A DNA stretch of 63,860 nucleotides, filler included, from Rhizaria sp. SCN 62-66 (GCA_001724265.1; 3 parts of 3 records of this genome joined end to end with filler, not necessarily neighbours in it); one strand, 5' to 3'; positions 20,596 through 47,326 are shown, counted from the first letter of the whole stretch. The notes: generated by a model not told the origin, from the sequence alone. Translations and numbers: made by a program.

Positions 20596-22473
20596 TTAGA
20601 TGGCGAAGAAGGATTCCGTGTCCAGAAACGGCGCGCACACCTTGATCTGGTCGCTACAAACGACCGACTCGCCAATTAGAGTTCGATTGTTAATATTTGC
20701 GACGTTACTGACATCGCCGATAACACTAACACTACGAATGATTATATCTTCACGTCAATTAAAAGTAGCTGTCAAGAGTTCCGTGCACGAGTAAACTACT
20801 CATATGATACTCGCGCTCGTTATTCTATAAGGTGTATTCATTCTGCACATAGTACGTAAGCCTTACGTACTTATACTAGTACTACATGTACATGTATTAA
20901 ATAAGAGCGACGAAAGTGAAACGAATTTGTAGCGCATGTATCGCATGTATTATTGCTGTGATTGTGACGCAGTTGAAATCAAGGTAAAGTAGTAAGATTA
21001 AGTAAGTACATGAGCCCATCCAGTTGCGTGGTAACATAATGTACCAGCGCCTTGCCTTGAGCGATGTCTTCAGGCGACGCACCCGCCTAATTTGTATATG
21101 TGAGAACCAACGGTTTGGGCGAAACGAAAGCAGGAACGACCTGAACCGTGTTATCCCACTTACTCTCAGGCAACGCCAGCTTCTTAATCTGGTCCAGTTT
21201 CGAGTTCTTCCTGGCCCGCAGCGTGTCCACCTCAGTCTCCATCATACTAATAGCCTCTTTTAGCTCGCCAGACTTCTTCTCATTTCCCTTCACATTCTCC
21301 AGCTTCTGCTTCTGCTTCTGCTTCTCCAGCTGATCCAGCATCTGCATCTCGTCCAACTCAAGCGACGCTAGCGCATCCAGCTCTTCATCCTTCAGCTTCG
21401 TCACCTCCGCCAACAGTTGGATCTCCTGCTGATTAGGATTCTCATGCGCCTGCAGTTGCCTCCTCAGCATCTTGAGCCTCTCCGCCAGCTCCANNNNNNN
21501 NNNNNNNNNNNNNNNNNNNNNNNNNNNNNNNNNNNNNTTAATTAATTAANNNNNNNNNNNNNNNNNNNNNNNNNNNNNNNNNNNNNNNNNNNNGGCCAGC
21601 TCCGCGCGGGCCGCGGCCTCCTTGGCGATGTTGGCCTCGAGCGAGGTGCTGGTGCGGTGCAGGCTCTCCTGGCGGGACACGAACGAGGCCTCTTTCAGCG
21701 TAGCCTCCTGGCGCGCGCGGTCAATCTCACTGGCCTGCTTGGCGAGCGCGTCAGCCTTGCTCTTGAGCTCGCTCTCGCGCGCCACCAGCTCGGCGTTGAC
21801 CGTGGAGCCCTCCGAGATGCAGCCCTCGAGACGCTCGAGGAACACGGCGCGCTCGTGCATCTTGGCCTTCTGCGCGTCGAGCTGGGCCGCGACGGACGCG
21901 TGCTGCTCGTTCTCGAGCAGCGACGCGCTGTAGCTTGCCTGGGTCTGCTGCGTCTCCTGCGACAAGAGTCTGTGAGGAGTAGGAGTGGGACGAGCGGAGT
22001 GGGTGGAAGTGGACGAGAGGGATTGAACGGTGGTTACCGAGGGGAGGAAGCAAAAAAGAGGGACATGAGGCTTTTGAGAAGGTGTTTAGCGTGAATTCAA
22101 TGCATGCAGCAAGCGCTGATAAAAAATGACGTTTGAATGAAGCGACAGAGTGAAGAAACAAAAGTAGGCAAAGGGGGCGGGCCTGGAGAAGGGGTAAAGA
22201 GCAAAACAAGACAATAGCAGGACCTATGGCCGACATGGGAATGCGTAGGGCAGCGCTAAGTGTAGATTAAGGGACGTACTGAGCAAGAGAAGCCTCAATG
22301 TCCTGGTTGACATCCAGAAGCGAGGACACAGGCGACCCCTTAGCAGCAGCAGAGCGAGCTGAGCTGGGCGAGGCCACACCATTGAGAAGCTCATGGACAT
22401 CTGACGCATACGCACCTTCCGCCGCAAAAGCAGCAACGAAGAGCGATGCAAGGAGAAGGATACACAACTTCAT
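20596..22473 (-). CDS. Secreted coiled-coil protein of unknown function; spans an assembly gap and contains one in-frame TAG
   Basis: Signal peptide MKLCILLLASLFVAAFA. Exons 22473-22280, 21969-[gap]-21010, and putative last exon 20653-20596 (DQIKVCAPFLDTESFFAI, TAA). Heptad E/K/Q/A/L-rich on both sides of the gap. In-frame TAG at 21087-21089. Continuity across the gap and the last intron (donor GTACTT) are inferred. Confidence 0.62.
21494..21593. other. Assembly gap spacer (N44-TTAATTAATTAA-N44)
   Basis: 100-nt N run with a six-frame stop linker at 21538-21549; same format as the second gap. Confidence 0.98.
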
Positions 22474-23274
22474 GTGCAAAATTCCCCCGAACACCAATTG
22501 TTCTCGGCACCCTTCCGTGTCTTCACGCCCCCTCATCAGCCCCTTTGCCTCGCTTCGGTCGGTGGTCGGTCGCCACTTTTCGTTGGTTAGATTTTTTGAG
22601 AACCCGATTTGTGTTCCTAAAAACTCCGCCAACCAGCTATCGTAGTAGTTTTGAGCCACCATCGCGCTCGCGCTCGGTCGAACTGCGAGGATATCTCAAC
22701 AGTCCTTCGACCAATATATATCTGTTTGAGATATGATATGGTCGTCATTAAAACCTTTGATGTCTCGTTATTGCTGCGCTTGGAGCCCTTAAAACACTCC
22801 ACTGCACGCATATTTCTAGCACTCTCTCGCTTGAACTTGGACTTCGAACATGACCTGCTTTCTCCAGCTCTTGCACCTCACAACAAAGCCCAATAGTCTC
22901 ACTTCAACCGAATTCCCATTTCGACTGATTTATTGTACCTTTTAGATTTGCTTTTACTTCTTCAAGCTGTAGCTGCAGACATCTATCCCCACTTTCTCGC
23001 CACTTCTCTCCCTTCGCTGGCAACTTCGCCCCGCTGTCACTGCCGCACCGCTTCCCAGCGCCGCACTACCGCCTCCAGGCCCGCTTTAAGCCCATTAGAC
23101 TTATTGGTTACCAAAACGACCCCAAGAGAAGCATACCACTGCGAGTGACGTCTCTAACCCCGTCTCGCCCTCCCTAGCCTGCCCTGTTTGACTCACCATC
23201 GCAGCACAACACAGTAAGTCTTGCCTCGCAGCGCGCACCTTCTTTGCTTCCCACGCACCACCACCCCCGCACAC

Positions 23275-24608
23275 ATGTCCAGCTCCGGCCCCTCGCACCA
23301 CGACGTGGACCGCTGGATCTCGCAGCTGGTGACCAGCTGCGTGCCGCTTACCGAGCTCGAGACGACGGACCTTTGCGACCGCGTGCGCGACCTGCTCCTC
23401 GAGGAGTCCAATGTGCAGCCGGTGTCGGCGCCCGTGACGCTGTGCGGCGACATCCACGGGCAGTTCTACGACATGCTGGAGCTGTTCCGCGTTGGCGGGC
23501 CTCTGCCGCAGAACAAGTACATCTTCATGGGCGACTTCGTGGACCGCGGGCACCACTCGGTCGAGACGGTGCAGCTGCTTTACTGCTACAAGCTGCGGTA
23601 CCCGGACCGCATCACGCTCATCCGCGGCAACCACGAGTCGCGCGCCGTTACGCAGACGTACGGCTTCTACGACGAGTGCATGCGCAAGTATGGCTCCACC
23701 TCGGTCTGGCGCGCCTTCACCGAGTCGTTTGACTACCTGCCGCTGGCCGCACTCGTCGACGGGCGCGTGCTCGCCGTTCACGGAGGCCTCTCGCCCGACA
23801 TCGGCACCGTGGAGGAGATCAGGATCATCCAGCGCAACCAGGAGATCCCCAACCAAGGTCCCTTCTGCGACCTGCTCTGGTCCGACCCGGAGGACATCGA
23901 GGTACGCACGGCTAGAAGAGCTTATAATCAGTATATCTTGCGTATATGAGGGATATATGGGAATTTATTTGATGTTGAGATCATTGTGCTGTCCATGTAT
24001 CTATATTTTCAATTTCACAATGACACATCGATACCATGTTTTTTTAATGTTCTACAATCTAACGCTTCTACAATCTAACGCTTTTCAATCTAACGCTTTT
24101 CTTAACTTTGCATTCTGCGTTGCTATGATTACTTTAGGACTGGGCGGTGTCGCAGCGCGGCGCGGGGTGGGTGTTTGGCCACAAGCCGACGTCGATGTTC
24201 TGCCACATCAACGGTATCGAGCTGATTGCGCGCGCGCACCAGCTCGTCCACGAGGGCTTCCAGTACAAGTTCCCAGAGAAGAACCTCATCACGGTCTGGT
24301 ACGTCTTATCTCTACATCCGCCAAGATCATGTCATGTCTGAAATATAATATCGTATTTTAATATTCTCTTATTACATTTATTTTAGACTATCGAGATCTC
24401 ATTCTCCCACCTATCTTTCTTTGCTGTCATTCATTCCTTTTTGTTTTTACATCATTTTAGGTCTGCACCTAACTACTTCTACCGCATGCGCAACGTGGCG
24501 GCGGTGCTGAGGCTGTCGGAGCACCTGGACCGCGAGATCCGCGTCTTCACCGACGTCAAGATGAGCAACGAGACGCAGAACACGCCCGACCTCCAGTACT
24601 TCTTGTGA
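23275..24608 (+). CDS. PPP6C: PPP-family Ser/Thr phosphatase catalytic subunit, PP6/Sit4-like; 3 exons
   Basis: Exons 23275-23901, 24138-24298, 24461-24608. [47 protein letters not shown]-terminal YFL. Stop TGA. Confidence 0.9.
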
Positions 24609-25118
24609 AGTGCGGACTGACAGACTGACAGACTGCTAGATACAACTGCAAGCACCGACGGCTCGACTCTTTTCCATGGTGATTGCCAGGGCCAGGAATG
24701 AGTCACACGATTTCAATAGTTTAATATTAGATATTTTATATACATATTATTTTTATATTTTAGTTTCAGCGCCACAAAATCTTGTTTAATATTGATTTCA
24801 AGTCGCTTATGTTTGCTTGTTGGTCCTCGGTTGACACGCAATAGTGGCGAGATGGCAACACTCGAACCTGCGGCGAAATGGCGGCTTTCAAGAGAATCGA
24901 CCTCGTCTCAGGTTGATCGACAAGAGGGCGTATTATACCATTTTTTGATTAATATGCACTGTATTTAATATATTTATATTTTTTCTTTCTCACTATTCAC
25001 CAAATGACTCCATCTGCTGCGTTTTTCCTTTCTCCACTCCGCAGAGAAAGCACAGCCCACATTCCATTGCCTTAACACCAACGACCAGAGCTTATAACAA
25101 CACCCCAACTACACAGCG

Positions 25119-27595: not shown

Positions 27596-28228
27596 GAGGT
27601 AGTGCTGGTGGGTGCTGCTGCAGTGTCATTGTGCTAACACCGCCTGATATCATGTTTTCGGTGTCATTTGCGATATATTTATTGTTGTGTAAGAGTTGTA
27701 TTTTCAGCCACTCAACTCGTCCATACGTGCTGCGAATGGTGACACATTTTAATGCGCTGTGTTCGAGTCATAAAGCTGGGGCCTTACAATGCGTTTTTCG
27801 TGTCAAATACAGCTAACATATGTTACACTGAAGCTACTATTTCCTTCATAACATGTTTCTAGCATCATAATGCTGGCCATCACCAATACTAGGACATTAC
27901 ACTGTCATCACTCGATTATAGCTACAAATGGCGACATTGCAGTTTGCCGCCCCAATCGATGCTATTGTTGCATGTTGACCGTGAGTAATTTTCGAGATCA
28001 TATCCACTTATCATAGCGCTTGTGCCGGGTGAGCCACTGCAAATACGGCTCAATCGATCCAGTTCACGCCATACGGGTGGGCGAAAACGCGCGGAGGAGA
28101 GCATGCAAGAGCGCACGCACTACGTAAGCGCACAAGCGCCGACAAACATGCACGCTGTGCTGCGTCACATTACAGCATGTTCGCTGGTCGCCGCACGCAC
28201 ATCTGGTGTAATAAGACACGCCGTCTTG

Positions 28229-29719
28229 TTACCGCAGAAACAGAAACAATGTCTTGAAGATCTGCTCCTTCTGGGCGTGACTAAAGTCGTTGTTATTCAT
28301 AAGCCCATTGAAGAAGATCTTGAGCTCCAAGTTAAAGTCGTCCCGCCTGTCCCAGGACATTTGGGCAAGACGCTGGGGCATCATCAGCGACGCGAAGCGG
28401 TACTTGGGCAGGTCCGTGCTCGACTCGTTCTCGGGCCCTTTGCAGATGATGCGGTCTGAGTGGATAGTCACCGTGTCGCTGACGCCGTACGCTGTCCGCT
28501 TGCCGGTGTGGAGGTTGAACACAAGATCGTGCGGCATCGAGGTGCCGTTGATGATGTTCTCTAAAGCACGGAAATGGTTCTTCGTCATGTTGCGAAGAAT
28601 GTGCATCAACGCCTTTACATTCTACTCCTCTGCTTCAGACGCGGCGCGCTCCTCTGCACTCATATCATCCCAGTCTGGGAAAGTCTCGATTTCATCCTTA
28701 GCCACGAGATCAGCCCTCTAAATCTCGTCGTAAATCCGCTGCACGGCGATCCTGGCCTGCGCAACCTTGGACTTGGCCTTCTTGAACTCGTCTTCGGTGT
28801 CCTTCTTCCGCTGCTCGCCACCGTCGAGGACACCCTCAAGGAGACTGGTCTCCATCAGCGCATGCGCAAGCTCGGCCTGGTGGCACGCCTGCTGCGCCTT
28901 GATGAGCTCAGCCTCGGCGTCGGACATGCGGATCTTGTACCGCATCAGCTCGATCTTGTCACAGAGGCTCTTGGTTGAACTCTCAACATTCTCGACCGCC
29001 TTCTCAGCCTTCTCCACCTTAACATCATCCTCCTCGGCGGCTATTGCGTCGGACACCACCTTCTGCGCCTGCACCAGCTTCCCCTTGGACTGCGCCTTGA
29101 CAAGCGCGGCGGCGGCCGCTAGGAACTCGGATGACTCCGCCTCCGAGTACTGCTGCGGCTGCTGCTCTCTGGCCGCACTGCCCGGCTTGGGGGCATGACG
29201 CTGCTCATCGGCGGCTTTGAAACGCTTCAGGGCGGCGGCGAGTTCGCTCTCGAGCTGCGGCAGCGGCACACTGGCTACCGACTTGGCGTTGCTGTCGGTG
29301 TCCGTGTCCGTGGTCGACGACTCAGACTCGGGCTCGGACGAGGCCGTGCCGGCGTCCTTGCCCTTGGCAGCGGCCCGCGTCGCAAAGCTGCGGGAGACGG
29401 CGCCCGCGGGTAGCGCCCACGGCAGCAGAGCGCTGCTGGCGGCAAGAGAGTGGCGCGCGCGCTGAGGCTGAGACGTAGACGCCAGCGCGGCAAGCAGAGA
29501 CGGCGCCGACAGCGCGGGCGACGTGAGAGACGGGGCGAGACGGCGGGTGAGACCCGTGCGGCCACTGATCACACCGTTGTGGGCGGTGTTGTCGTGGGTC
29601 GCGAGCAAGGAGGACGAAGGCTTGCAGATGGACAACATGTCAGCAAAGAGTGGCGTTGTTACGGGAGAATGCGACGCAAGGAAGCGTGACGCACGAGAGG
29701 AAACGCGACTCAGAATCAT
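28229..29719 (-). CDS. Orphan coiled-coil protein with mitochondrial-presequence-like N-terminus; 496 aa if two TAGs are read through
   Basis: ORFs 28718..29719 and 28229..28609 share one frame and are separated only by TAG at 28718-28720 and 28622-28624; the linker is coding-like with no intron signature. Stop TAA. Confidence 0.72.
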
Positions 29720-30572: not shown

Positions 30573-30953
30573 GACAACCACTGACCTTCGGACGAAAAGG
30601 ATTACTCTAACCAGTAACTAGTCGTTGGCCACAACTAGGTTTGACCAGCGGGCGAGGTCGCTATCACTCACGTATCTTATCTTTAGCGTCAACAATCTCC
30701 AGGCTAGGATATTTTGATTTATTTGTGACTTTAATTACGACCTTTTATTTACACGCCTGATCTGTGTGACTATCCCTCGCATCTTGCTTTTCCAAGTCCT
30801 CACTCCGTTAGCCTTCATCTTTGCCGCCCATCTTGCTAAGACCAGCTCGCCTCCCGGTGGACTAAAAGACAACACACCCGCAGCAGCGACACACCCAACC
30901 CCATCACACGGAAGTCACTTTGCTGAAACAGCAAGGCTCCAGCTCGCTCCCCA

Positions 30954-33300: not shown

Positions 33301-36300
33301 TCACAGTTGTCCCGCCGCTGTGCCACGTGCTGCCCCTCTGTAGCTGTCTCTACTGTCGTGGGTGTGAGTGCGGAATGCGTCTTCGGTCTCCGTCTCGTAC
33401 TAGTCTGTCATGAGCTGCCCGATGCCGTCGACTGCGCCGCTGCTGCCCGCGCCGCGCGCCTACAGCCACTCAGCGCCGTCAATCATTCGCAGCACACCGC
33501 TGGCGTCACCGCCAACGTTGCCACTGCTCACGTCACTGCTGGCGCAGCAGTCACCGCCAGTCTCCCGTGAGTCACCAGCGCCAGCGCCATCACTGTTTGT
33601 GCGAATGATTTTCGACTAAGGAGCACTCAAACAACTGCTAAAGTATGATGTTTGGGTGCCCGCAGCGTTTATACCCGCAGTAACACTGTCACCGTCGTTG
33701 TTGTTACTGGTAACGACGTTGTTTGTATCACTTGAAGCAATAGCAGCGACAGCCAGGCTAAAAAACGCGCGGCCCGTTGCTGTTGTGCTGCCCAGGCACG
33801 CGTTCGAACAGCTGCTGACCGTGCTGCTGCGGCGCTGGCGACTACAAAGAGCGATGCAAACACCGACGTTGCTCCTTGTGTTAGTAGTAACGCGGAGTTG
33901 CGCCTTGTGGGCACTAGTGCGTAGTGTCGCGAAGGAGCGGCGCGGCAGAGGACTGCCGGTACTGTCAACAGTGCTGACACCACTGCTGCGCGAACTAGCG
34001 CTGGCAACTGCAGCGCTTGCGTGAGCGGCGTCTTGGCTTGCGGGGGTTGCGGCAGAGCTGGGGTGGCTAAGTCTGCGGTCGCGCACCCAGGCCAGACTAG
34101 GGTCCTGCTCGAAGTCAGTCAGCGACGCTGCGTGCAGCGCCTGCTCGCTCAGCGCACGCGCGCTCTCGCTCTCGGAGATAACTTTCTCGCTCTCCGACAG
34201 CAGCTCCTCGCTGCGCTGCAGCGCGCGGTCGCTTACTTCCTCGTTGTTAGAGACGAGCAGCCTCTCACTGTCAGACAGCATTTCCTCGCTGTGATGCAAT
34301 GCGCGGTCGCTCGCATCCTCGTAGTCAGCGCGGCTAAGGTTAGCTGCGCCGCCATAGCTGGGGCAGACAAAATCTTGAGTTGATTGTGCATTAGTAGCCG
34401 CGTGAGGTGTGTTTGTGCTTGCGTTGCTTGTAGTGCCGTCGTCATCTTGGATGCGCATAGCAAAGTTGCTCATGTTACTAGTGCCGTTTTTCTCAAGCGA
34501 ATTGCAGCGCGTGACTCTTGGCACTGCAAGCGTGAGCAGCTGCAGCGGCGAGCGGCCCCCACTCACGCACGGCGTCCCCGTTCCCGCGTCCAGAGTCACG
34601 CGGGCCCGGTCCTCGCCCCATTCGCAGTCGCGCTCGCGCTCACGTTGCTCTTCAGCCGCCGCTGAGGGATCATCAACCTCCGCTTCGGCTTTGAACTCAG
34701 TCTCGTCCTCGGCAACTACTGCGACAGACTCGGCCTGTGCGGCAGCGGCGGTTGCTGCAGCGGCGCTGGCGCGAGCCGCGGCAACAGCGGCAGCAGCAGC
34801 AGCGGACGCGACAAAGGAACTCTCCTTGGCAGCGTCTAAGCTAGTGACGCTGTGTTTGTCCGTGGTAGCGTTTTGACTTGAGCTGCTGCCCAGATGAGTG
34901 CTGTTCTCACTTGTGTGATGTGTGCGACCGGCACTAGCTGAGTTGTTAGCGCTGTCTCTGTTAAGCTTGTTGGCGTTGACAAACGTAGGCAGCATGAGGT
35001 CTCCGTCGTACACGCCAGTGACAAAGTCGACGAGTGCGACACGTGCGGCGAGCGGCGACCGCGTCACGAGCTGCGCTGCGTCAAGAAACACGGAAGAGGC
35101 ATCTTGCCCCGTTGATTGCGCCCGTGTCAGCGCTTGTAATCGTGAACGCGACCGTGATCGTGAGCGGGACCGCGATTGCGCGCGTAGGTGGTCGAGCGAC
35201 TGCATGTGCTTATGTTTGCTCTGGTGGACGTGATTGTGCGCACCATCAAAAAGCCCACGCACACCATGCTGACCACGTTCGCTTGCTGTGTGCGCAACAC
35301 CCAACGCTCTCTTGCGCGGCTGCTCCGTGGCGTGGTGGCTGTGCGGCAGCGTTCGCGTGTGCAGCACGTGGTGCCACGGCACCGCCCACCCGGCGCCGTC
35401 GCCGCCCGCCTCGTCCTCGTCCACGGGCCCCCACTTCGCGCCAGCTTTGTCGCCGGGCGTGGCAGCACCGCGTTTGTGAGGAAACAGTCTGTGACCGTGC
35501 CTGCGTGTGGGGCTGTAACTGATATCATGGTTGCGATTATAAACGTTCTATGTCAAACGACGTTGACTTGCCTACACGTCTCCCCGCTTCTTCCGCAGCT
35601 GATCAAGTTCATGCTGGTGCTGCTGCAATATCTCAAGCCTGTCGATTGTGTTAATTGCACTTGCACTTGCGTCGTCATATCCGTCGGCAGAACTGTCCCT
35701 GTTGCGGTTATACGTACTTCCTGTGTTGATACCGCCAGGCTTGTGGCGCAACATACTTGCAACACTTAACTGCGAGCCAGCACGGCTTGTGTTATGCGAT
35801 ATCAGGTTGTTAAACGCAGTGCTAATGCCAACGCCTCCCGGAAAAGTACTATGAGAGGCGTTCGCGCTCACAGTAGAGCTGTACTGCCGCCGCGTCCACC
35901 ACGCGCCCTGGCCGCCGTGGGCGGGCCCGCTAGCGCCGGTGCTGGCGCGGCTGTCTTGGCCGGCGTGGCTCGCAGCGGCAGCGCGGATGGCCGCAGTGGT
36001 CTCCTCGGCAATCGCGGTGGCCTGCGCGCTCTTGAGCAGGTGGCGCCATGATCGCGGCGGCTGCGGCGCCCAGCCCCCCGCCTCGGCGCCCAGCTCAGAG
36101 CTGCTGTCTTCATGAATGCTTGCAGTGCCAGTGCGGCGTGCGTTCGCGGTTGAATCTGAGATCGGCTGGCCACGCATGTGCACAGACCAGTGCGCGTCGC
36201 CTCCAGCGCTAGAGTCCGCGCCTGCGCCTGTGCGATGAACGCTGTCTGTAATGTCACTGTAGGCGGACGCTGTGGGCGGCGTCAGCGACTGCGCGGGCCA

Positions 36301-39300
36301 GCGCAGCGAGGCGCGGTTGCGCAGCGCGGCGGCGATGACCTCCGCCAGTGACACAGGGCCGCGGGCGGCGCTGGTGCCTGGGCCGTCAGTCGAGGGCGCT
36401 GTTGCAGCTCCGACGCCACCAGCCGTACTGCGGGCGGCGCGAGGAGACTTTGGGTTGCTGCGATCACCATATGAAGCAAACCTTGCAACATGATGTGCGC
36501 TGGCACGGCCATGGTGTTGGATGTTGCCGCCCATGCTGGTATCCGCCGCCCATGCAAGGGGGCTGTAGCTGTGGTCGCTCGCCTCAGCTTCTGCAGCAGC
36601 CTCGGCCTCCGCCGCAGCCACCGCCGCGCGCGCAGCGTCCTGAAGATACGCCGAGTAGCCCCGCTCGCGAGCCCGCGACTGCTCCCAGAACTGCGACCAG
36701 TCGCCGCCGCCCACGGCTGCAGCGTCGCCTTGGCCCAGCTTTAGACGAACGCCCGCTGTGTCAGCGGCGCCCACATTGGCAGTCGCGCGCGCACGGGCGC
36801 GGGCATTAGCCTCAGCGTCAGCGGCCGCCTGCGTCAGCACTAGGATTCGCTGCTCCTCGCTTTTCGCGACCACAACGTCGTTGCCGCTCTCGTGCGCACG
36901 GCTCGCGCGCGCATCCATGTAGGTCTTGTGATCGACGGGAGCGTCCTCTGCAAGCGCGGCGCGCCGGTCGCGTTCGCGGTCGCGGCGGGCCGCCACGAAG
37001 CGTGCGCGCGCCGCCAGCTCGCGCCACAGCGGCGCCAGCGCGGCGCCTTTGGCCGGGCCCAACAGCCGCGGCACTGGAGCCGCCGCCGCACCGGTGCGCA
37101 CCACTGCGCTGTTGCCGCGGCTGTCGGTGACAACGGCGTGGGGCGCTGCGGCTGCGTCGGCGTGCCCGCGGAGCGCGTGCAGCGTGCGCGCGCGCAGGGA
37201 CTCCCTGTTGTTGTTTTCGAACACGCCGGTTCTGGCGCTGACGTAGTCCGCGCCGCGCCCCGCGAGCCGTTCTAACTCCTCCTCTTGCTGGTGCAGCTGC
37301 TTATAGTGATTTTGCGCCTCCGCGCGCCGCTCGCGCGCGAAGGCGAGCTCCTGGAGGTCGGCCGCGTCCGGCAGCGCCAGATCGGCCCAGGTAAGCGGGC
37401 TGTACGCCGCAGCGGGGACGCTGAGGTGGACGGGGGACGCGCTGACGCCCATGCGCGCGTGTGGCGAGTCTGTGAGCTCACCGACGGAGTAACGCAGACC
37501 GGAGTCAGCATGGCCTCTGTCACTTAAACTAGAGCTATTTGTGTAACTGTTGTCGTAGTCGTCCTCGGTGTTGCCTGTATTAGTGCCGCTGCGCGCTTTC
37601 CTTTTAGTGCCGGTAAACGGCGCTGTTGCGGCCGGCGTGGAGAGGGGCGAGAACATCGGCTGGGACACAGGAGAAAAGAACGTTGCTTCGTCGCTGTTGC
37701 TAAAACTGTTGTTGTTATAGCTGTTTCTCCGCGCACCGTCGCTGTCGCTGTAGCTGTGACGGCCACTCCTCGCGGCTGCACGATCATTGCCAGTGTCACC
37801 ACCGACGATCGCAAACCACCTGCCAGCACGACTGCGTCTCGCGTCACCGTTGCTGGCGCCGGTGTTGTCAGTGGGTCTGTCACTACTGTCTGTGCGCATA
37901 TGCTGCTGGTAATGCGGTTCGCCCTGCGGTTGTTGCTGCTGTTGCCGTTGCGATTGTGCATACCTCGACCGTGCTGACTGCGACGGCGGCGACCGCTGCG
38001 GCGACTGGGAGAACACGGGGAAGCCGCTCCCGCCGACGCGGCTCGCCTGCTCCCCACGGCCTAACTGCGATCCGGGGAACTTAAGCCCAGTGTAAGTGCC
38101 GAAGCTCCTCCGGCCGCTCGTGCCACTGCCGCTGCTTGCATTGCCAGTGCTACTATCTCCGCTGTTTTTCACAACGCCGCTGCCGTGCGTACCGCCGCCA
38201 TTGCTATGCGGTTTGCTGCTATTGTGCATTACCGAGCGCGCGGGTTGCCAGCGCACGCCGCCGTGCGCGCAGCTGATAAACGTGCCCGCGCCCGCACCCG
38301 CGGGCTCCGCCAACAGCGCCGACGACGGGCAGTGGCGATGACCGTGGGCCGCGGAGTGCGCCGACGGGTGACCGTGGGCCAGGGGCCCTTGCGTGTCGCG
38401 GGTCGCTATACCAGCTCCGGTATGGTTATCGGTGGCAAGACCGCCGCTTGCGTTGCTGACGGTGCTACTGGTGCAGTTGTTGCTGTCAGAGCTGTCGTCT
38501 CCCTTGTTCTCGCCGTCGCCGTTGATGCAGTAGCTGAGCCCGCTGAAGGTGCTGAGGTCGCGCACCGTAGACTCGCCCAGCTGGCTCGTGCTCGCGTGCT
38601 GGTAGCCGCCACGCGCACCACCAGCACCCTTGTGACTGTGAGCAGCAGTCTGACCGCAAGCAGCGGAGTGACCGTGAGCGGAGTGACCGTGGGGCGGCAC
38701 GGCGGGAGGACGCAACACAAGCCACGGCTGTGGTAGTGCTGATGTGGGCGCGGCGGCAGGCGCCACTTCGCCGCCCTTCAAGTACTTGAGGCAGTTGCTG
38801 ACGGCAGTAGTACCGCTGCCGGGAGCCGATTTATTAACCGAGTGGGCAGTGTGAGTCGAGCTTGCATTGATAATGTTAGAGTTGCCGCCACCGCCAGACA
38901 TACGTGCTCTGCTGTCAAGCTCGCACTGCGGCGCCAGGCTGCTTGCCCGCATGTGCACAGTGGTGCCCTTGAGCGCGAGGTCCCCGCTATTTCGACTGCT
39001 GCTGCTGCTGCTGCTGCTGTCGACTGAGGGCGCTGAGTGCGGGTCGTTTGACTGGGACGGTGCATGCGCGCTGGCGCTACTGTTGCCGCTTGCAATGCCG
39101 CCGTGCTGGATAGCCGCAGGGCTGTTGCTGCAGCGTGTGCTACTGAAACGCATGTGGTTAGTAACGTATTGCTGGAGCGGACATGTCACCGTGTTGTGAC
39201 TTGAAGCGAGGGAGTGACTTGAAGTAGCGACCTGGCGGCTCAATGCGGCCTCGCCCAGGCGACGACTTGAAGATTCAGATGCTTTCAGCAAGGGAGCCAG

Positions 39301-39333
39301 CGCGCGACTGCGCAAGTTTATCGCGCGGAGCAT
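33301..39333 (-). CDS. Large low-complexity orphan protein with presequence-like N-terminus; about 2010 codons with 5 in-frame TAGs
   Basis: One frame runs from ATG 39333 to TGA 33301-33303 with no TAA/TGA, only TAG at 35572, 35548, 33616, 33460 and 33400. May splice (intron 33304-33078) to a last exon 33077-32912. Confidence 0.75.
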
Positions 39334-39880: not shown

Positions 39881-40927
39881 TTAGTTGGCTGAGGTGAACT
39901 TCTTGGCAGCCGAGATCTCGCCCTCGGCGCCCTCGGTGGCGGCCTTGGCGTAGTCGCCGAACTTGCTCACCACGAGCGCCTTCTTCTTGTCCTCAATTGA
40001 CTTGCAGCAGACCAGCACCTCGCGCTTGAGCGAGTTGTGCAGCGTCTCGGCCTCGTCCGCCTTGCTCTGCGCCGAGTCGATCTCGACCTGGGTCGCCTTC
40101 TTGGACTCGACCGCGGACTTGAAGCTCGCCTGCTTGGCGTCGAAGTCGAGGCGCGAGTCAGAGGCCTTCTTGATCAGCTTATCCGTCGACTTGACGTCGT
40201 TCTCAAGCAGCTCCGAGACCGCATCGATGACCTGGGATTGCGGTAACAAAGCAAAGCAAAATGGTAGAAAGAGTGTGTGAGACGAAAGGGAAACGCGTTA
40301 GACACTTAACTGTACGTGCAGTGCGATCATTACGTCTTGTCTAAGAGTAAAAGCAAACTATTCAAAAAGAACCCACACAAATCCACAATACAGAGCCACA
40401 TTAGGTCGCTTTCATGACGACTGGAGCACCGAAAGAAAATCATTCCCGACGTACGTGGATCTTGAAGGCGGCGAGGCGCGTGGCCTGCGCGGTGTGGGCC
40501 TCGGCGACGAAGGTGCCGAAGGCGCGCAGCGAGGCGTGCGAGTCAGCGTCGGTGGACTGGACCTTGGCGGTGGTGGAGCCGAGCGCGAGGAATGACTCGA
40601 GCGCGGAGGCTTCGGTCTTGTGCCACTTCTTGGCGGCCTCGAGGAACTCGGTCATCTCGTTGCGCGTGGCCTTGAACTGAGCCACGGCGTCGACGTACTC
40701 CTGCGAGTCCGCAGTAGACTCGGCCTTGCCAACCTCTGCGTGGGTGGATACAATCAGTTACAACAGATACAAACGTCATGGTGAGGAATTGGGATGAGCA
40801 AGAAAGAGTGGGGCAAGCGGGAGGATACGAGAGTGCGAGCGATTGGAACAGGGAAACAAAAGCGGGGATAGAACGTACTCTCCTTGGCGAACTGCTTAAG
40901 CTTGTTGAACTTGTCGAGGAAAGACAT
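39881..40927 (-). CDS. BAR-domain protein; 3 exons
   Basis: Exons 40927-40879, 40735-40455, 40231-39881. N-terminus KLKQFAKEKVGKAESTAD, helical body, SRLDFDA motif; strong codon bias. Stop TAA. Confidence 0.78.
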
Positions 40928-41409
40928 TGTTGATTCTACGCAGTGCAGGCAAGATCATCAAAAATGAAGCGGTTTGTAAGGCATGGGATGTGAGATTTGT
41001 GAGGTAGCGGTTAATGGATACGGCAGGCACGAGGCCGCTAAGATTCTGGAGCTATACCGCATGATTCTGTGGGAAAACAAGCACTCTGAAATAAAGAGTT
41101 AGCACACCAGCACATATAAACTCAGGACAAAAACAATCTGCCTCATTTCACCCTAGGATCATCGAGATGTGGTGGCCGAATTGTGTCTTACACGTCGCCT
41201 CTCGAAGACGAGAGGCCAAGAAAAAAAATCAACAAATCATCTCTGTCAGCGGCTCGAATTCGAAGCTCGTATCGACGATATCTCGCTTAAATCAAAGACT
41301 CTGGGGATTTAATTGAACAAAACATAACCCTGCGCTATCTCATGTATTATATCTCTATTTTGTTATCGCTGACGATTATCAAAGCCCAGACAGCGCGTTC
41401 CCCGAGCCA

Positions 41410-42499
41410 ATGGACTTCATCCGCGCCGGTTCTCGCGTCGCCGCCCCGCGCCTGCTGACGGACCGCGGCGTGGCCTCCGAGACCGACCCGTACCCCTGGG
41501 AGGACGCCCTCTCAGCGCATGTGTTCAACCAGCGCCTGGATGTGTTCTACCCCGCGCCCGCGGTCCCCACGGCGTCCGCATGCGCAGCGCACGCCCCTGC
41601 CGTGTCCTCCGCCGCCGCCGCGCTCGCCGCCGCGCTCGCCGCGGACGCCTGCTTCTACGCTATCACGGCGCCCTGGCCCGCGCTGCTGTCCCCTGCCTTC
41701 CTCACCCCGCTGCGCGCGCGCTTTGCCGTGTCGTTCGCGTCCGCGCGCACCCCGCTGGACCGCGTCTCCTCAGCAGCGCTCCACCCCTCCGGCCTACTCC
41801 ACTTGGCGCTCGACCTGGATACGTTCCAGACGCTGGGACTCGAGGCCGCCGCGCCCGCCGCCAAGCGCGCGCGCACCACGCGCCTGGGCCGCCAGCGCTC
41901 GCGCCGCGCCGCCACGCGTTACGACGTCGAGGTCGACACCAGCACACCCAACCACAAGAGCTCTGCGCCCAACGCCGCTGCTGGTGCCACTGATGCTGCT
42001 GCTCTGGTGGCTACCGTCGTGTCGCCCGCGGTCAGCCGACTGCTGTGGTGCCTGGCGCCCGAACGCGTGGGCTGCCCCTCGGTGCTGTTGCTTCTCTCGC
42101 GCAAGCAGACCCCTGACAATTCCACTCTAGCGTTGAACGACGACAGCTCTAGCTCCAGCTCCAGCTCTGGCTCTGGGTCTGCAGATGCCGCCCCGCTACC
42201 CACCGCCGAGGAGCTCAGGCAGCTTTTGGCGGCTACGCTGGCGCCTGTGCCCGCCGCCGCCCCCGCGGCCCCCACCGCCGCCGCCGCCGCGCTGGCCGCC
42301 GCCGCCGCGGTCGCGAGGGCCCGCGCGACTTCTCTCGCCGCCGCGACCTCGCTGCTGGGCCCCGGACCGCTCTCTGATAGCGCCGCCGCGAACGGCAATG
42401 GCAGCAGTGGCAGTGCGTATGTGGGTGCGATTAGCGTTCGCGCAGTGCCGTTTGCCTCCGCGCTCGCAGTCACCCCTAACCATGACAACCCCACTGGCC

Positions 42500-42543
<44 letters not shown>

Positions 42544-42907
42544 GGCGGACACAGTAAGGCTGGCGAGACGGTGTTGTCATGGCTGAAGCTGGCCGAGGTT
42601 GCCGCTCCCGACACAATCCCCCTCCACGGCGTCCGCGGCGAGCCCGCAACCTACGCCACGGGTACTTACACCGGTCTAAGTACCCATAACAGTTCCAGCT
42701 CCAGCTCCAGCGCGAGCTCTAGTGAGGACTTCGTGTCGCTGGGGACGCTTTCGCGCCCGCACAACTTTGGCAGCAGCAATAACAGTAATATCAAGCATCA
42801 TCACCACACCAAGCACAAGGGCAACAGCTACAGCAACAGCAACAGCAACAGCAACTCATATCCCAGCACTAGCGCCAACGCTGCAGCGCCCGATGTCGCC
42901 GCCGCGC

Positions 42908-42951
<44 letters not shown>

Positions 42952-43766
42952 NNNNNNNNNNNNNNNNNNNNNNNNNNNNNNNNNNNNNNNNNNNNTTAAT
43001 TAATTAANNNNNNNNNNNNNNNNNNNNNNNNNNNNNNNNNNNNNNNNNNNNGTCGACGGCGCACTTGCTCGAGACCGTTATGGTTCCCGCGCACGCGTTT
43101 GCGCTCGCGCGAGAGACGTTTGCCGGCGGCGATAGACCCAGCAAAGCGCGCGAGATCGCCGACACAACTGGCTCTGCCGGCGAGCTTTCTCGTGACGAGT
43201 GCGCAGCGAGGATGGACGATAGCGAACGTGCCTGCGCTGCGCTGGTGCCCGCCTACCGCGCGCGCGTGCCCGCCGTGGCGCTGGGCGCTCTGTGGGGCCG
43301 GTGGTACGCACCGCTGCCGCGCGACATGGCCCTGCCGTGGGCGCTCCCCGCAACACAAATAGAGTCTGGAGCGAATGACACACTCAGCAGCGCGACCGCT
43401 ATGGATCAATGCACTCTGAGTGCGGTGCCGCGGCCGATGCTGTTTTCGTCGCCGCTGATTGCGGACGAGACACTGCGGCCATCAACTGGGCTCCACATCG
43501 CCCCCGGCCACCGGAATGGCGGCGCACACAGCCACGTCAATGCTAGCGTGCGTTCCACTGCATCAGGAGGTGCCACGGTAGCGACTGCGAATACAACGAG
43601 TGTGCGCGCAAATGCGAGTGCAGCGACGATGGATGCGGTCCAGCTTGAAGCTGTCGTGGTCGCGGGGAGCCATCAGATGCACGAGACGGACTCCCCCGTG
43701 GTGGCTGTACGCCTGCTGCAGTTTCTGGAGAAGCGCGCGCTGCTAGAGCAGCCGCGCTACCACTGA
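41410..43766 (+). CDS. RPP40: RNase P/MRP subunit p40 (RPP40)-like; spans an assembly gap
   Basis: Pre-gap HVFNQRLDV, LLSPAFL, AALHPSGLLHLALDLDTFQTLGL match the Rpp40 N-terminal half. Post-gap PAVALGALWGRWYAPLP and GHRNGGAH resemble the Rpp40 C-terminal PWxxLxVxGFxDSP and GFRKGGEH motifs. Stop TGA. Confidence 0.72.
42952..43051. other. Assembly gap spacer (N44-TTAATTAATTAA-N44)
   Basis: 100-nt N run with stop linker at 42996-43007, directly after a (GCC)n tract. Confidence 0.98.
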
Positions 43767-44344
43767 TCAGAGTTAGTACTGAGTAGTTGATCATCTGTAT
43801 TGCTCTTTGAGTCGAAGTAGTTACATATTAAACCAAAAATAGTAACCGAAATTACTTCATTGTGTACCACACGGCCAGCGTGTGTACCACCGGAGTCTCT
43901 CCTGAGATGCGAAATCACATTGTCCAAATGATATTTTTACATTCTCAGAACGTGATTGTGACAGTCTCGCGTTGTGATTAAAAAAGTATTTTATTCAAAT
44001 AATAGTCAATTGTGAGTACATGTATGTACTTGTAGCCTCTTAAAATAGAGCCCGAAATAAAGTTGGGATCTCTAACTCAAAACAACGATATCGAACTGCG
44101 ATCTTTCGATCTTTCGTGTTTACGTTGTTGTTGTGTGTGTGTTTTTTTGTTGTTGTTTCATGAAATATTGTGACATTACTGAATCTGAATACAGTTGATT
44201 GAGGCAAACGAAATAAAAACAAGTGCTTCTCGAATCAAAGTATCGTGAGAAGTGATTATCGTGAATAGATTTAGAACACATGATTCTTGAGAACCCATGA
44301 TTCGTGACTAGTGACGGCGCAAAGATTCACTTGTGTACAATGCT

Positions 44345-47326
44345 TTACAGCACGTCCTCGGTGACGAGCGAGAGAATGCTGTGCAGCGCGTTGCGCATGA
44401 ACTCTGCAACGTCGACTCCACGTCCTTGAGGCACGCGCTTGACAGGCTTGCGCCCCTTAGCCTCAAGGAGGTCACTGAAATACATCAACATCGGCTCCAT
44501 GAACGTGCGCTCATCATTGCCTGTACTGTGAGGATCGACAGCGATTATGTGCAACTCTGCACCCGCGGCGCGCGCTTCGTCGTCCAGCTTGTTGACAATC
44601 ATCTCTGGCGTGATACCCTTTGGATCACCACCAGGAATCGAGTCGTACGTCGAAGGGTACCCTTGACGCTGGTTGTACTGCACGCCGTGGCAGGGCATGT
44701 CGCCGATGAGAAGCACAAAGCGGCCCTTGTTAGCGCGCCACGTCAGGTTCGTCGCCTTCCACAAACCACCAAGAACATCTTCACAGTCGTCACCATTGAC
44801 GACTTTCAGGCTGTGCATAAAGGTGCTCGCATTGTTCATGTCTTCAACAAAATCGTAGGGCTGGTAATAGTCTGCGTGGCATGTGCCATACCTGTCAGTA
44901 TCGCAAGTTGTGCGCGTACAGCCAGGCTTGTGATCATTGTATGGTGCAATACCAAGGCGAATGACAGCATTGCGACCACTACGTTGCTTGATCTCTTGCG
45001 CGAGGTTATTGACAACTGTCGTCACGTGCCTACGAAGTCCGTCAATATATGGCGACATACTACCCGTGGTATCGATGGCAATGGCAATGTCAAAGCTCAT
45101 GTCACAATCGCCGCGCAGACGATCTTGTAGTGCGGCGTGACTAAGACTGGGAAGAAACTCGGGGTCTGTGGCGTTGTTGCGCCAGCGTCCGGCATCGCGA
45201 GCCATATTGTCATGCATGGCGCCTCGCACAGACGCCTGTTGCAGAATCAACGCAGGCACTGCCGCTGCAACCGCGTCGAGGTCGGGGTCTCCAGTAGGAT
45301 TGTCGATAAGCGACAGGAGATAGTCGACCAGCACACGCGGCGACACTTGCGTGGGGGACAGCACGGGAAGCGCCAAGATGCGATCTTCATCCGCATTATT
45401 CTCACGCGGCAAAGGCGCCGCCGGCATTAGGGCAAATGCCGTCATCGGCTCATCACCGAACGGCAGCAGCTGCTTCGGCGCCGTGCTGGTGCGCACATAG
45501 GGCATCCACACTTGGCCGCGCTGCGGGGACAGCCATTCTAGCACGTTTTCACGCCGGGCAATCTGTAACCGGGCAGTTAAGGACATGTCGCCGGGTTCAG
45601 GGTGCGCGATGTCGAGCCAGAGCACGAACGCGGTGTCGTCGAGGTCCAGCGTGTTTACACGTGCATTCGCAACTGAGTCGCCGTGGCAGCGCGTTAGCGC
45701 TGCAAGCGCTTCCGCGTCTGAGGGTTGCTTAAGCAGCGGGAGCAGCAGCGGCGTGAAGGCACCGCGAGCACCCGCTGTGATGTGCAGCCGTGCCGTGATC
45801 ATCTCTGCGGGCGGGAGCGGTGTCGTTGGGAGCCGTGCGATTACAGGATCAAGACAGCGACGCAGAAGCTGTAGTGCGCGGCGCTGACGCGCGCTAAGAC
45901 TGGTAACTTCCGCACCGTTCTTGGGAGAATCAAGAAGCAAGCTAAGGATAACCGTGAGAAGTTCGCTCATGACGCCTAAGAACACAAGACTCGACGGGAA
46001 AAATGGGGTGAGGTAGTGCTGGAGCCAGAGACCGAATGCGGGTGAGCTAGCAATGAGCCCCACGACTGTGTTGTAGTCGCCAGTAGCACTTGCGTTGTTA
46101 TTGGGGGGATTGAGAGAAAACTCGCGTTCAGCGAAGGTGTTCACATCAGCCGCCAGCGCATGCGCCAGCAGCAGGCCCACGGACAGCGTGCCGTGCCTCT
46201 CGTCGTCGTGGTGCGGCCCTGGCGGAGCAATCTTTGCCTCACGCGCGTCATTCCGAACGCGGGTAAAGAGCCGCTCGCAAAACTTATCATGGTAGCGATC
46301 AGTCCCAATTGCATGGGTTTTCGCGGTGAAAGTCGCGTCAGCGCGAGGACCGTCTGAGACTACAGGGTTAGCGGTTGTAGCGGGGGCAATAGAAGGCGGA
46401 AGCGCAGGCGCGTCGGCGGCGAGAAACCCAGGCGTTGTGAAAAAGACACAGAGCGCGTGGGACCACTGGCGCTCGGCATCTGATGCGGCGTAGCTGATGG
46501 CAACGGCGGGCACCGCACCGCGATCCAAGTTCATGAAAGGGGCGATGTCAAAATCACCAAATTCATCAATGCGCGTGACACTGGAAAACCATAGCAGCAG
46601 CGTAACGTACGCGGGTGAGCGTATGATGTTATAGTTCTTCCTGGTGTAGTCCACGACCATCTGCGGGGTGACCTCACTCACATCAGTCACGCCGAAAATG
46701 CCAGAAGATGACTGAGCGGCGCTGGAGTCGGCGTCGCTCTGTTCCTCGTTCGCGCCAGCACGCTTGGCTTTCTTGCCTTTTTTGTCGCTCTTCTCCTTCT
46801 TTTCCTTCTTTGCTGCCCTCTTCTCAGCGTTTTTGCGGATCGATTCAAACGCCTTCTCGCGGCGGTCGCTGTAGTCGACGCGCGCGAGCTGCACTAACGC
46901 CACGGCGAAGTCCATGGCACCCAGCGCCACGCACAGCCGCAGCGCGCGGGTAAGGGCTTCCAGGGCAACAGCACGCAGGGCGTGATAGGCCGGGAGCGCT
47001 GCGTCATCGTCGTCGGTGGGCAGCGCGATAGTCATCGGGAGGAGGACGCGAACGGCGGCAATGCGGTCAACGAGGGGCATGCGTGCGGTCTCGGGAGAAA
47101 TCGCATCTGCAGCAATGCGCCACCACTCAGACGGGTCATTTTTAGCTTCTACGATATATCTTGGCGTCAAAGTGGTGTTTAACCACGGGACAAGGTGCGT
47201 TGTCACTAGCTCTTGGACTTCCTCGACATCACAGTTCGCAGGGGATGAGACCAGTTGGGCCTCGAAAGCCTGCAGACGCACAAGAAGCTCCGCCAAATGG
47301 AGGTATGTTGACGTGCGGGGCTACAT
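44345..47326 (-). CDS. Intronless protein with C-terminal vWA domain (VwkA-type); codon 2 is TAG
   Basis: DIAIAIDTTGSM (MIDAS-like), GDDCEDVLGGL, WRANKGRFVLLIGDMPCHG. In-frame ATG at 47326-47324 is immediately followed by TAG 47323-47321. Stop TAA. Confidence 0.8.

What the first reader, a model, noticed from the sequence alone, without database searches (positions are those of the whole stretch)
20596..47326. Probable variant nuclear genetic code: UAG is a sense codon (likely Gln) while UAA and UGA remain stops
Seen in sequence: four genes are interrupted only by in-frame TAG (21087; 28622, 28718; 33400, 33460, 33616, 35548, 35572; 47321), with no internal TAA/TGA or frameshift. The 13 genes without an internal TAG end in TAA (6) or TGA (7), and the four read-through models also end in TAA or TGA. 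Pseudogene decay should also create TAA, TGA and indels. Inference: the contexts M*PRTS, DV*ASQRRLT*NVY, SAP*SKI, EWL*ARG, MTD*YETE, DEI*RAD, EAEE*NVK and YTN*AGA fit a polar residue such as Gln, but Leu is not excluded. Established: UAA and UAG nearly always change meaning together in nuclear codes. Uncoupling is known in few lineages, e.g. Iotanema spirale (UAG=Gln) and an uncultured rhizarian (UAG=Leu).
Basis: partly seen in the sequence, partly recalled or inferred. Interest (0 to 1): 0.96.

Follow-up and report, generated by a model that had tools for sequence, protein, structure and literature searches.

The report
UAG probably read as sense codon
An uncultured wastewater eukaryote has two genes whose protein-coding signal runs straight through UAG codons, and a distant relative has a stop at the same place in one of them, so the organism probably translates UAG instead of stopping there, which is a rare kind of genetic-code change.

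Summary
In P0002 (28229-29719, minus strand; 2 TAGs) and P0001 (33301-39333, minus strand; 5 TAGs) the frame-specific codon bias continues past every TAG. It stops only at TAA or TGA, where AT-rich DNA begins.

The strongest evidence comes from a roughly 70%-identical relative in public protein collections. Its P0002 counterpart is called as two ORFs. One ends exactly at our codon 333. The other starts at codon 339, runs through our second TAG (Arg there) and reaches the same C-terminus without gaps. So sequence behind a shared in-frame stop has been kept as protein, which argues strongly against decay.

None of my 18 gene models ends in TAG (8 TAA, 10 TGA).

TAG 47321 probably lies in an intron or 5' region, and 21087 is ambiguous.

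Against a plain reassignment:
- 16 other coding segments (10,360 codons) hold no TAG.
- P0001 varies almost neutrally between strains.
- No tRNA or eRF1 could be examined.
- The relative's stop codon is unknown.

Glutamine has no direct support.

Verdict: UAG is probably translated (about 0.6). It would be a new, sparse-use member of the known UAG-only code variants.

The parts
28229..29719 (-). P0002: a 496-codon gene with no Pfam family, ending in TAA 28229-28231. It carries two in-frame TAGs.
   Evidence: Translation. Coding profile stays positive past both TAGs. A relative's fragments P0130 and P0131 cover residues 141-333 and 339-496.
28718..28720 (-). TAG at codon 334 of P0002. A standard-code stop sits at the same position in a ~70%-identical relative.
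   Evidence: P0130 ends ...RIYDEM against our ...RIYDEI[TAG]. P0130 and P0132 each occur on 7 contigs, and the longest contig listed for each is 103,729 nt.
28622..28624 (-). TAG at codon 366 of P0002. The relative has Arg at this position.
   Evidence: BLASTP of residues 335-496 against P0131: 110/157 identical, no gaps, x aligned with R.
33301..39333 (-). P0001: a 2010-codon low-complexity gene (ATG 39333 to TGA 33301) with five in-frame TAGs and no Pfam family.
   Evidence: Translation, coding profile, Pfam search. Contigs from other samples keep the TAGs.
35572..35574 (-). In-frame TAG in P0001 (context DV x ASQ).
   Evidence: Unchanged in X3 record 7 and X5 record 20.
35548..35550 (-). 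In-frame TAG in P0001 (context RLT x NVY).
   Evidence: Unchanged in X3 record 7 and X5 record 20.
33616..33618 (-). In-frame TAG in P0001 (context SAP x SKI).
   Evidence: Unchanged in X3 record 6 and X5 record 17.
33460..33462 (-). In-frame TAG in P0001 (context EWL x ARG).
   Evidence: Unchanged in X5 record 17.
33400..33402 (-). In-frame TAG in P0001 (context MTD x YET).
   Evidence: Unchanged in X5 record 17.
20979..21491 (-). 3' part of a coiled-coil gene that continues across the scaffold gap to about 22085. TAG 21087-21089 lies 35 codons before TGA 20979. It could be either a stop or a sense codon.
   Evidence: The coding score is weak on both sides of the TAG.
47321..47323 (-). TAG upstream of the vWA-domain gene (44345-47080). 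It probably lies in an intron or the 5' region, and is in frame only if the weak acceptor AAG|47328 is used.
21494..21593 (.). Scaffold linker N44-TTAATTAATTAA-N44. A second one lies at 42952-43051. The window is therefore three contigs joined together.

Best explanation
In this organism UAG does not end translation. Ribosomes insert an amino acid at UAG and terminate at UAA or UGA. P0002 is then one 496-residue protein and P0001 one protein of about 2010 residues.

Shown: coding sequence continues in frame behind seven TAGs; the part behind the first P0002 TAG is conserved as protein in a relative that has a stop at the same codon; and no gene in the window ends in TAG.

Inferred: the decoder is a tRNA with anticodon CUA, together with an eRF1 that has lost UAG recognition, as proposed for the other UAG-only lineages. 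The relative shares the trait. UAG is a rare codon here, tolerated mainly in weakly biased, fast-evolving genes.

The amino acid is not determined. Gln is the prior favourite only because CAG and TAG differ by one transition.
For: 1. Codon bias. The training set has GC3 0.78 over 7,194 codons. Frame-1 scores stay positive from the first P0002 TAG to TAA 28229 (0.03-0.33), then fall to -0.26 to -0.76. In P0001, frame 1 scores best in 16 of 18 40-codon windows after the 35572/35548 pair, and the signal drops only at TGA 33301.

2. The relative. A full HMMER scan of 1.84 billion representatives returned 3 hits. Two are our own fragments. The third, P0130 (68% identity), ends exactly at residue 333. 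The word-based search with residues 335-496 returned P0131 (158 aa), which is 110/157 identical and 131/157 similar with no gaps. It starts at V339 and spans our second TAG. Residues 339-352, upstream of the first Met (353), are 11 of 14 identical, so translation must arrive from upstream. The N-side and C-side ORFs are each seen on 7 contigs, with the same longest-contig length of 103,729 nt, so the break is not a contig end.

3. No frameshift and no TAA or TGA in 2,506 codons. Nonsense changes are 2.4% of random substitutions, so seven of them imply about 290 substitutions. Between strains, 4 indels appear outside coding DNA against 12 listed non-coding substitutions, while both indels inside P0001 are multiples of three (12 nt and 3 nt).

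4. The five P0001 TAGs are unchanged in contigs from another study's sample (X5), whose only differences (2 + 2) lie elsewhere. Three of the five are covered by X3 contigs with no differences.

5. Stops: 0 of 18 gene models end in TAG (8 TAA, 10 TGA). These include PP6 ending ...YFL, eS7 matched to the end of its profile, and importin-11 matched to position 366 of 371.
Against: 1. TAG use is very uneven. There are 0 TAGs in 10,360 codons of 16 other coding segments (416 CAG, 88 CAA), against 7 in 2,506 codons of P0001 and P0002. In described UAG-only lineages most genes carry it: 78-91% of genes in phyllopharyngeans (PMC11687900, section 10), 384 in 71 genes in the rhizarian exLh, and 204 in 126 genes in Iotanema (PMC5304391, passages read).

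2. All TAGs sit late in their genes: the last 38% of P0001 and the last third of P0002.

3. P0001 differences between strains are 8 synonymous to 15 non-synonymous among the 23 rows shown. This fits neutrality (expected synonymous share 0.25-0.29) or omega of about 0.5. A further 67 rows were not shown by the tool.

4. A stop shared at codon 334 with a 70% relative is not expected if UAG were just one of several interchangeable Gln codons. It hints at a site-specific role.

5. Which stop codon the relative has is unknown, because its DNA could not be fetched.

6. The window holds no tRNA and no Rfam family. No genome is held, so no tRNA(CUA) or eRF1 was seen.

7. No listed contig piece covers the two P0002 TAGs in other samples.
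Confidence: 0.6

Rival explanations
1. UAG is still a terminator, or has two meanings, and is read through only partly. P0002 makes a short and a long form by conserved programmed readthrough at codon 334. Other in-frame TAGs are tolerated because readthrough is generally leaky in this lineage.
For: The stop at codon 334 is shared with a ~70% relative and followed by conserved sequence. The TAGs lie in the 3' parts of genes. TAG is absent from 10,360 codons of other genes. TAG 21087 could be a true stop with a short extension.
Against: P0001 has five TAGs and P0002 two, whereas programmed readthrough normally involves one site. None of the seven sites has a recalled readthrough context such as UAG-CAR-YYA; the next codons are GCA, AAC, TCG, GCG, TAC, AGG and AAT. 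No gene in the window is shown to end in TAG. Sequence after the last P0001 TAGs still shows frame-specific bias.
Confidence: 0.2
2. P0001 and P0002 are pseudogenes or carry nonsense alleles, and the standard code applies. TAG predominates because GC-rich codon usage (many CAG, GAG, AAG and TCG codons) makes TAG the commonest nonsense product.
For: 58-60% of random nonsense changes in these genes would be TAG. P0001 has the weakest codon bias (0.12). Its strain differences look close to neutral. Neither protein has a Pfam family.
Against: There is no frameshift and no TAA or TGA in 2,506 codons, although seven nonsense changes imply about 290 substitutions. Both indels inside P0001 are multiples of three. 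The region behind the P0002 TAGs is 70% identical to the relative without gaps, and the first stop is shared, so it is old while the downstream sequence has been maintained. Zero of 18 genes ending in TAG would remain a coincidence.
Confidence: 0.07
3. The TAGs are true stops that separate independent, adjacent ORFs which happen to share a frame. These would be P0002 N and C parts, and P0001 as two or three genes.
For: Prokaryote-style gene callers split them this way (P0005, P0128, P0129). A Met conserved between the two species exists at residue 353 and again at 378.
Against: The spacers would be 15-330 nt of GC3-biased sequence, whereas real intergenic DNA here is AT-rich and hundreds of bases long. 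Residues 339-352 upstream of Met353 are conserved. In our organism a TAG follows Met353 after 13 codons. The same frame would have to recur by chance at every junction.
Confidence: 0.04
4. The TAGs are removed or changed at the RNA level, either by U-to-C editing or by unusual short in-frame introns, so the standard code applies to the mature mRNA.
For: It could not be excluded. All four runs laid were contigs, not reads, and no listed RNA contig bridges a TAG.
Against: The known introns here are AT-rich, 100-800 nt long, and carry GTATGT/GTACGT donors and ACTAAC. The TAG neighbourhoods are GC-rich coding sequence. The residues flanking codon 334 are conserved as protein on both sides within 5 codons, which leaves no room for an intron.
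Confidence: 0.04

Closest known systems
Iotanema spirale nuclear code (UAG = Gln; UAA and UGA stop). Source: PMC5304391, abstract and passages read.
   Same: Only UAG occurs in frame. Gene ends use UAA or UGA, never UAG. It is a non-ciliate protist.
   Different: Iotanema has 204 in-frame UAGs in 126 mostly conserved genes, aligned to Gln. Here 7 UAGs sit in 2 lineage-specific genes and none in the conserved genes, and no column supports Gln. Iotanema stops are mostly UAA (104 of 119); here the split is 8 TAA to 10 TGA.
Rhizarian exLh nuclear code (UAG = Leu). Source: PMC5304391, abstract and passages read.
   Same: UAG is uncoupled from UAA. True stops are UAA or UGA only (56 and 15).
   Different: It has 384 UAGs in 71 genes, which is very frequent. 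Here UAG is rare. Leu is neither supported nor excluded here.
Phyllopharyngean ciliates with UAG = Leu or Gln. Source: PMC11687900, abstract and section 10 read.
   Same: These are UAG-only reassignments, found partly in metagenome-assembled genomes. UAG vanishes as a stop.
   Different: They are AT-rich ciliate genomes in which 78-91% of genes contain internal UAG and suppressor tRNA genes were found. Here the genome is a GC-rich non-ciliate type with yeast-like intron signals, 2 (at most 4) of 18 genes carry UAG, and no tRNA is available.
Programmed stop-codon readthrough that gives C-terminally extended isoforms (known in fungi, animals and viruses; recalled, no paper read here).
   Same: A stop at a conserved position is followed by a conserved in-frame extension (P0002 codon 334).
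   Different: There are several TAGs per gene here, none of the recalled stimulatory contexts is present, and the extension is a 162-residue region as conserved as the upstream part.
Pyrrolysine decoding of UAG in some archaea and bacteria (mentioned in PMC5304391 Background; details recalled).
   Same: In-frame UAG is kept at the same position in orthologues. UAG is rare as a stop.
   Different: That is a prokaryotic system with pyl genes and catalytic-site UAGs. Here five UAGs lie in low-complexity sequence of a eukaryotic gene, and nothing suggests a special residue.

Membership tests
UAG-only stop-to-sense nuclear code (UAG sense; UAA and UGA stop) | In-frame UAG inside sequence that is demonstrably coding on both sides | tested here: met
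   Met for 7 TAGs in P0001 and P0002, by codon-bias profiles and conservation of P0002 residues 339-496 in a relative. Not met or ambiguous for 47321 and 21087.
UAG-only stop-to-sense nuclear code (UAG sense; UAA and UGA stop) | UAG never marks a true gene end, while UAA and UGA do | tested here: met
   0 of 18 gene models end in TAG (8 TAA, 10 TGA). Homology supports the C-terminus for only three of them: PP6, eS7 and importin-11. The sample is small.
UAG-only stop-to-sense nuclear code (UAG sense; UAA and UGA stop) | UAG positions align with one particular amino acid in orthologues | tested here: inconclusive
   Only two sites are alignable. Codon 366 faces Arg in a variable stretch and codon 334 faces a stop.
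UAG-only stop-to-sense nuclear code (UAG sense; UAA and UGA stop) | Widespread use of UAG across genes, including conserved ones | tested here: not met
   0 TAGs in 10,360 codons of 16 other coding segments. Described lineages carry it in most genes (PMC11687900 section 10; PMC5304391 passages).
UAG-only stop-to-sense nuclear code (UAG sense; UAA and UGA stop) | A tRNA with anticodon CUA | not testable with these tools
   No tRNA in the window, no Rfam hit, and no genome held.
UAG-only stop-to-sense nuclear code (UAG sense; UAA and UGA stop) | eRF1 N-domain changes that weaken UAG recognition | not testable with these tools
   There is no eRF1 gene in the window and the rest of the genome could not be reached.
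Programmed stop-codon readthrough | A stop kept at the same position in orthologues, with a conserved extension behind it | tested here: met
   Met for P0002 codon 334. The relative's codon type is unknown.
Programmed stop-codon readthrough | A single site per gene with a stimulatory context | tested here: not met
   There are 2 and 5 sites per gene. The downstream codons GCA, AAC, TCG, GCG, TAC, AGG and AAT show no shared motif. The motif definitions are recalled.
Pseudogene | A mixture of stop types, frameshifts, fading coding signal and no constraint downstream | tested here: not met
   Only TAG occurs, there are no frameshifts, and the coding signal is kept. Downstream of the P0002 TAGs the sequence is 70% identical to the relative. 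P0001's near-neutral polymorphism is the one feature that fits.

The most novel reading that the evidence does not exclude
UAG in this lineage is not just an extra Gln-like codon but a conserved, site-specific recoding signal. The UAG at P0002 codon 334 would have been held in place since the split from a ~70%-identical relative because it inserts a dedicated residue or sets the ratio of two protein forms. The organism would be caught at an early stage of codon capture, with UAG already gone from gene ends and only beginning to reappear inside genes.
Probability: 0.1. Interest if true: 0.93.

Novelty: new member of a known kind. Interest (0 to 1): 0.68.

Why it matters
Nuclear codes in which UAG changes meaning while UAA stays a stop are known from only a few lineages: a rhizarian, a fornicate and some ciliates. 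They show that eRF1 can tell the two codons apart.

A further, unrelated case would add an independent origin. This one has a GC-rich genome with few introns. UAG is absent from gene ends but used sparingly inside genes. It could represent the poorly documented early stage of a reassignment.

There is also a practical consequence. Standard gene callers split these genes (P0005, P0128, P0129, P0130, P0131), so proteins of this lineage in public catalogues may be truncated.

Tried and rejected
- Whole genome: none is held.
- More DNA of this organism or its relative: the metagenome scan with the DnaJ protein gave only a 2,464-nt contig of the same locus plus six unrelated J-domain hits. Two genome-contig scans and two viral-contig scans found nothing.
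- Dispersed repeats that could have served as a handle on other contigs: only low-complexity trinucleotide families.
- tRNA and Rfam scans of the window: empty.
- Pfam on the TAG genes, even at E up to 5: nothing usable.
- Atlas search for the vWA protein: only weak vWA look-alikes, scores 0.76-0.78.
- Structure of P0002 residues 301-496 from a two-row alignment: mean pLDDT 49, too poor to search folds or to argue from helices crossing the TAGs.
- Test for AT-rich third positions around the TAGs (a local C-to-T patch): not significant, P = 0.08 and 0.07.
- Exact look-ups of P0001, P0003 and P0004 fragments: not in the collection. Cluster look-ups gave no names or taxa.
- Short introns spanning the TAGs: rejected because the flanks are conserved protein and the known introns are AT-rich.
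- RNA evidence: all four runs laid were contigs. Parts of P0001 occur in a poly(A) RNA library (X8), but no listed piece bridges a TAG, and cover of the P0002 TAGs in other samples could not be read from the listed pieces.
- Taxonomy is unresolved. The best non-self PP6 hit has 75% identity and no name. An eS7 fragment scores best with chains that I recall as vertebrate (84 bits), above yeast (about 66) and far above kinetoplastid or Plasmodium chains.
- Literature: searches turned up no report of a UAG change in a wastewater eukaryote. Supplementary tables of the papers were not open.

Full report
WHAT THE WINDOW IS

The 63,860-base window is a scaffold of three contigs. They are joined by two identical linkers, N44-TTAATTAATTAA-N44, at 21494-21593 and 42952-43051.

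It is nuclear DNA of a eukaryote. Exons are GC-rich (third-position GC 0.78 over 7,194 training codons). Introns and spacers are AT-rich.

Introns have GTATGT or GTACGT donors and an ACTAAC branch site. One example is 12624-12803 in an AAA-ATPase gene.

Genes identified:
- GDA1/CD39
- a PTEN-C2 protein
- a two-domain AAA ATPase
- importin-11
- a PP6-type phosphatase in three exons, ending ...YFL
- a DnaJ protein
- a BAR-domain protein
- Rpp40
- a vWA protein
- ribosomal protein eS7
- a Pex26-like protein
- a 2,566-residue poly-Q protein

The DNA occurs in bioreactor, wastewater and activated-sludge runs from six studies.

CHECKING THE OBSERVATION

All nine TAGs are at the stated places and in the stated contexts. 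I scored every frame with a codon log-odds model trained on seven confident ORFs.

In P0002 (28229-29719, minus strand) the frame-1 score stays positive through both TAGs (28718, 28622) as far as TAA 28229, and is negative beyond it.

In P0001 (33301-39333, minus strand) frame 1 is the best of the three frames in 16 of 18 40-codon windows after the 35572/35548 pair. It stays positive past 33616, 33460 and 33400, and collapses at TGA 33301.

These seven TAGs are therefore inside coding sequence.

The other two are weak evidence:
- TAG 47321 sits where the coding signal is negative. I found an upstream exon (48218-47924, phase 1, donor GTACGT). Its in-frame acceptors include a weak AAG at 47329 (TAG then internal) and a good CAG at 47107 (TAG then intronic).
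- TAG 21087 is followed by only 35 weakly coding codons before TGA.
- One more TAG-ended coding block (50646-51221) simply runs into an intron.

My 18 gene models end in TAA (8) or TGA (10), never in TAG.

IS IT MORE THAN CHANCE?

With the codon content of these two genes, 58-60% of random nonsense changes give TAG, so seven of seven has P = 0.02-0.03.

The absence of frameshifts is the stronger point. Nonsense changes are 2.4% of substitutions, so seven of them imply roughly 290 substitutions in 7.5 kb.

Indels are common between strains. Four are listed outside coding sequence (15, 1, 1 and 7 nt), against 12 listed non-coding substitutions. The two indels inside P0001 are 12 and 3 nt.

Zero TAG stops among the 14 genes without an internal TAG has P = 0.007-0.10 if TAG normally made up 15-30% of stops.

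EVIDENCE FROM OTHER SAMPLES

Only assembled contigs could be laid, not reads.

- Contigs of X3 (another study, no differences from the window) cover three of the five P0001 TAGs.
- Contigs of X5 (a further study) cover all five. Their only differences (two in each contig) lie elsewhere, so all five TAGs are kept.
- X4 contigs also cover all five, but 3 of their 17 differences were not listed, so I cannot be certain for X4.
- No listed piece covers the P0002 TAGs.

Of the 23 listed differences inside P0001, 8 are synonymous and 15 are not. This is compatible with neutrality or an omega of about 0.5, and not with strong constraint. The tool did not show 67 further rows.

THE DECISIVE LEAD: A RELATIVE

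A full HMMER scan with P0002 (TAG read as Q) against 1.84 billion representatives found three proteins. Two are our own fragments as gene callers cut them (28-333 and 372-496).

The third, P0130, is 237 residues long and 68% identical. It aligns to our 141-333 and ends exactly there...RIYDEM against our ...RIYDEI followed by TAG.

A search with residues 335-496 found P0131 (158 residues). It starts at V339, runs through our second TAG (where it has Arg), and reaches the same C-terminus with 110 of 157 identities, 131 positives and no gaps.

The N-side ORF (P0130) and the C-side ORF (P0132, which is P0131 with M for the first residue) are each seen on seven contigs. The longest contig listed for each is 103,729 nt, so the break is a stop codon and not a contig end.

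The part behind the stop is as conserved as the part before it. The conservation includes residues 339-352, which lie upstream of the first Met. In our organism a second TAG follows that Met after 13 codons.

The simplest reading is that ribosomes pass the stop at codon 334 in both organisms, and also pass codon 366 in ours. This argues strongly against recent decay of P0002.

WHAT ARGUES AGAINST A PLAIN REASSIGNMENT

TAG is absent from 10,360 codons of 16 other coding segments, which hold 416 CAG and 88 CAA. P0001 has 5 TAG, 51 CAG and 27 CAA. P0002 has 2 TAG, 20 CAG and 1 CAA.

In described UAG-only lineages the codon is widespread:
- 78-91% of genes in phyllopharyngean ciliates (PMC11687900, section 10)
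- 384 in 71 genes in the rhizarian exLh (PMC5304391, passages)
- 204 in 126 genes in Iotanema (PMC5304391, passages)

All the TAGs here lie late in their genes.

A stop kept at the same codon over 30% protein divergence is not what one expects from an interchangeable synonym.

I could not learn which stop codon the relative has.

No tRNA or eRF1 is available.

Gln has no direct support.

MOST LIKELY MECHANISM AND RIVALS

I put about 0.6 on UAG being translated and not serving as a terminator in this organism. By analogy with the known cases it would be decoded by a tRNA(CUA) alongside an eRF1 that no longer reads UAG. Use would be sparse, possibly because the change is young or the codon is poorly decoded.

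About 0.2 goes to a leaky or dual-meaning UAG, with a conserved readthrough site in P0002.

Pseudogenes (0.07), independent same-frame ORFs (0.04) and RNA-level correction (0.04) each need several coincidences or contradict the conservation data.

COMPARISON AND NOVELTY

The closest known systems are:
- the UAG-only codes of Iotanema spirale (Gln) and the rhizarian exLh (Leu) (PMC5304391, abstract and passages read)
- those of phyllopharyngean ciliates (PMC11687900, abstract and section 10 read)

This case shares two features with them: in-frame UAGs only, and UAA/UGA-only gene ends. It differs in genome type, in its very sparse use of UAG, and in the conserved stop position.

My paper searches found no report of such a code in a wastewater eukaryote. 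Supplementary files were not open.

The organism's placement is open. PP6 is at most 75% identical to anything else in the collection. An eS7 fragment scores best against chains that I recall as vertebrate.

Noticed in passing
21494-21593 and 42952-43051: Two identical linkers (44 N, TTAATTAATTAA, 44 N) join three contigs. The coiled-coil gene (about 20979-22085) and the Rpp40-like gene (41410-43766) each run across a linker, so their models are incomplete. The flanks of the first linker both encode ...ELA, so the two contigs may overlap.
   Followed up: partly
12624-12803; 17702-17810; 23911-24134; 24291-24480; 51211-51390; 47107/47329-47923: Introns are AT-rich (about 26-40% GC) inside GC-rich genes. 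They have GTATGT or GTACGT donors, an ACTAAC-type branch site up to about 50 nt from the acceptor, and YAG acceptors, which is a yeast-like signal set. Several intron coordinates are approximate.
   Followed up: partly
53323-61023 (+): A single 2,566-codon ORF with long poly-Q, poly-A and poly-D/N tracts, no Pfam family and the strongest codon bias in the window (0.48). It has hundreds of CAG/CAA codons and not one TAG.
   Followed up: no
48218-47924 (-): A GC-rich, acidic exon (98 codons plus 1 base) lies between the eS7 gene and the vWA gene. It is either the first exon of the vWA gene or a small separate gene whose frame would then end at TAG 47856 in AT-rich DNA.
   Followed up: partly
37576 and 38676 (inside P0001): Other samples carry a 12-nt insertion and an AGC insertion here. 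Both keep the reading frame. The four indels outside coding DNA are 15, 1, 1 and 7 nt.
   Followed up: partly
23275-24608 (+): A PP6-type phosphatase in three exons. Its closest non-self protein (P0009, 75% identical, 311 residues, from a 7,119-nt NCBI contig) is uninterrupted and unnamed. Everything else is 70% identical or less, so the lineage is poorly sampled.
   Followed up: partly
48675-49500 (-): The eS7 gene is in two pieces that overlap in coordinates in different frames, which implies a short intron. Its N-terminal part scores 84 bits with chains that I recall as vertebrate, about 66 with yeast and 23-30 with kinetoplastid or Plasmodium chains. This hints at an amorphean rather than an excavate or alveolate affinity.
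   Followed up: no
all four TAG-bearing ORFs: All four lie on the minus strand. Eight of the 18 genes are on that strand. With only two solid cases this is not significant.
   Followed up: no
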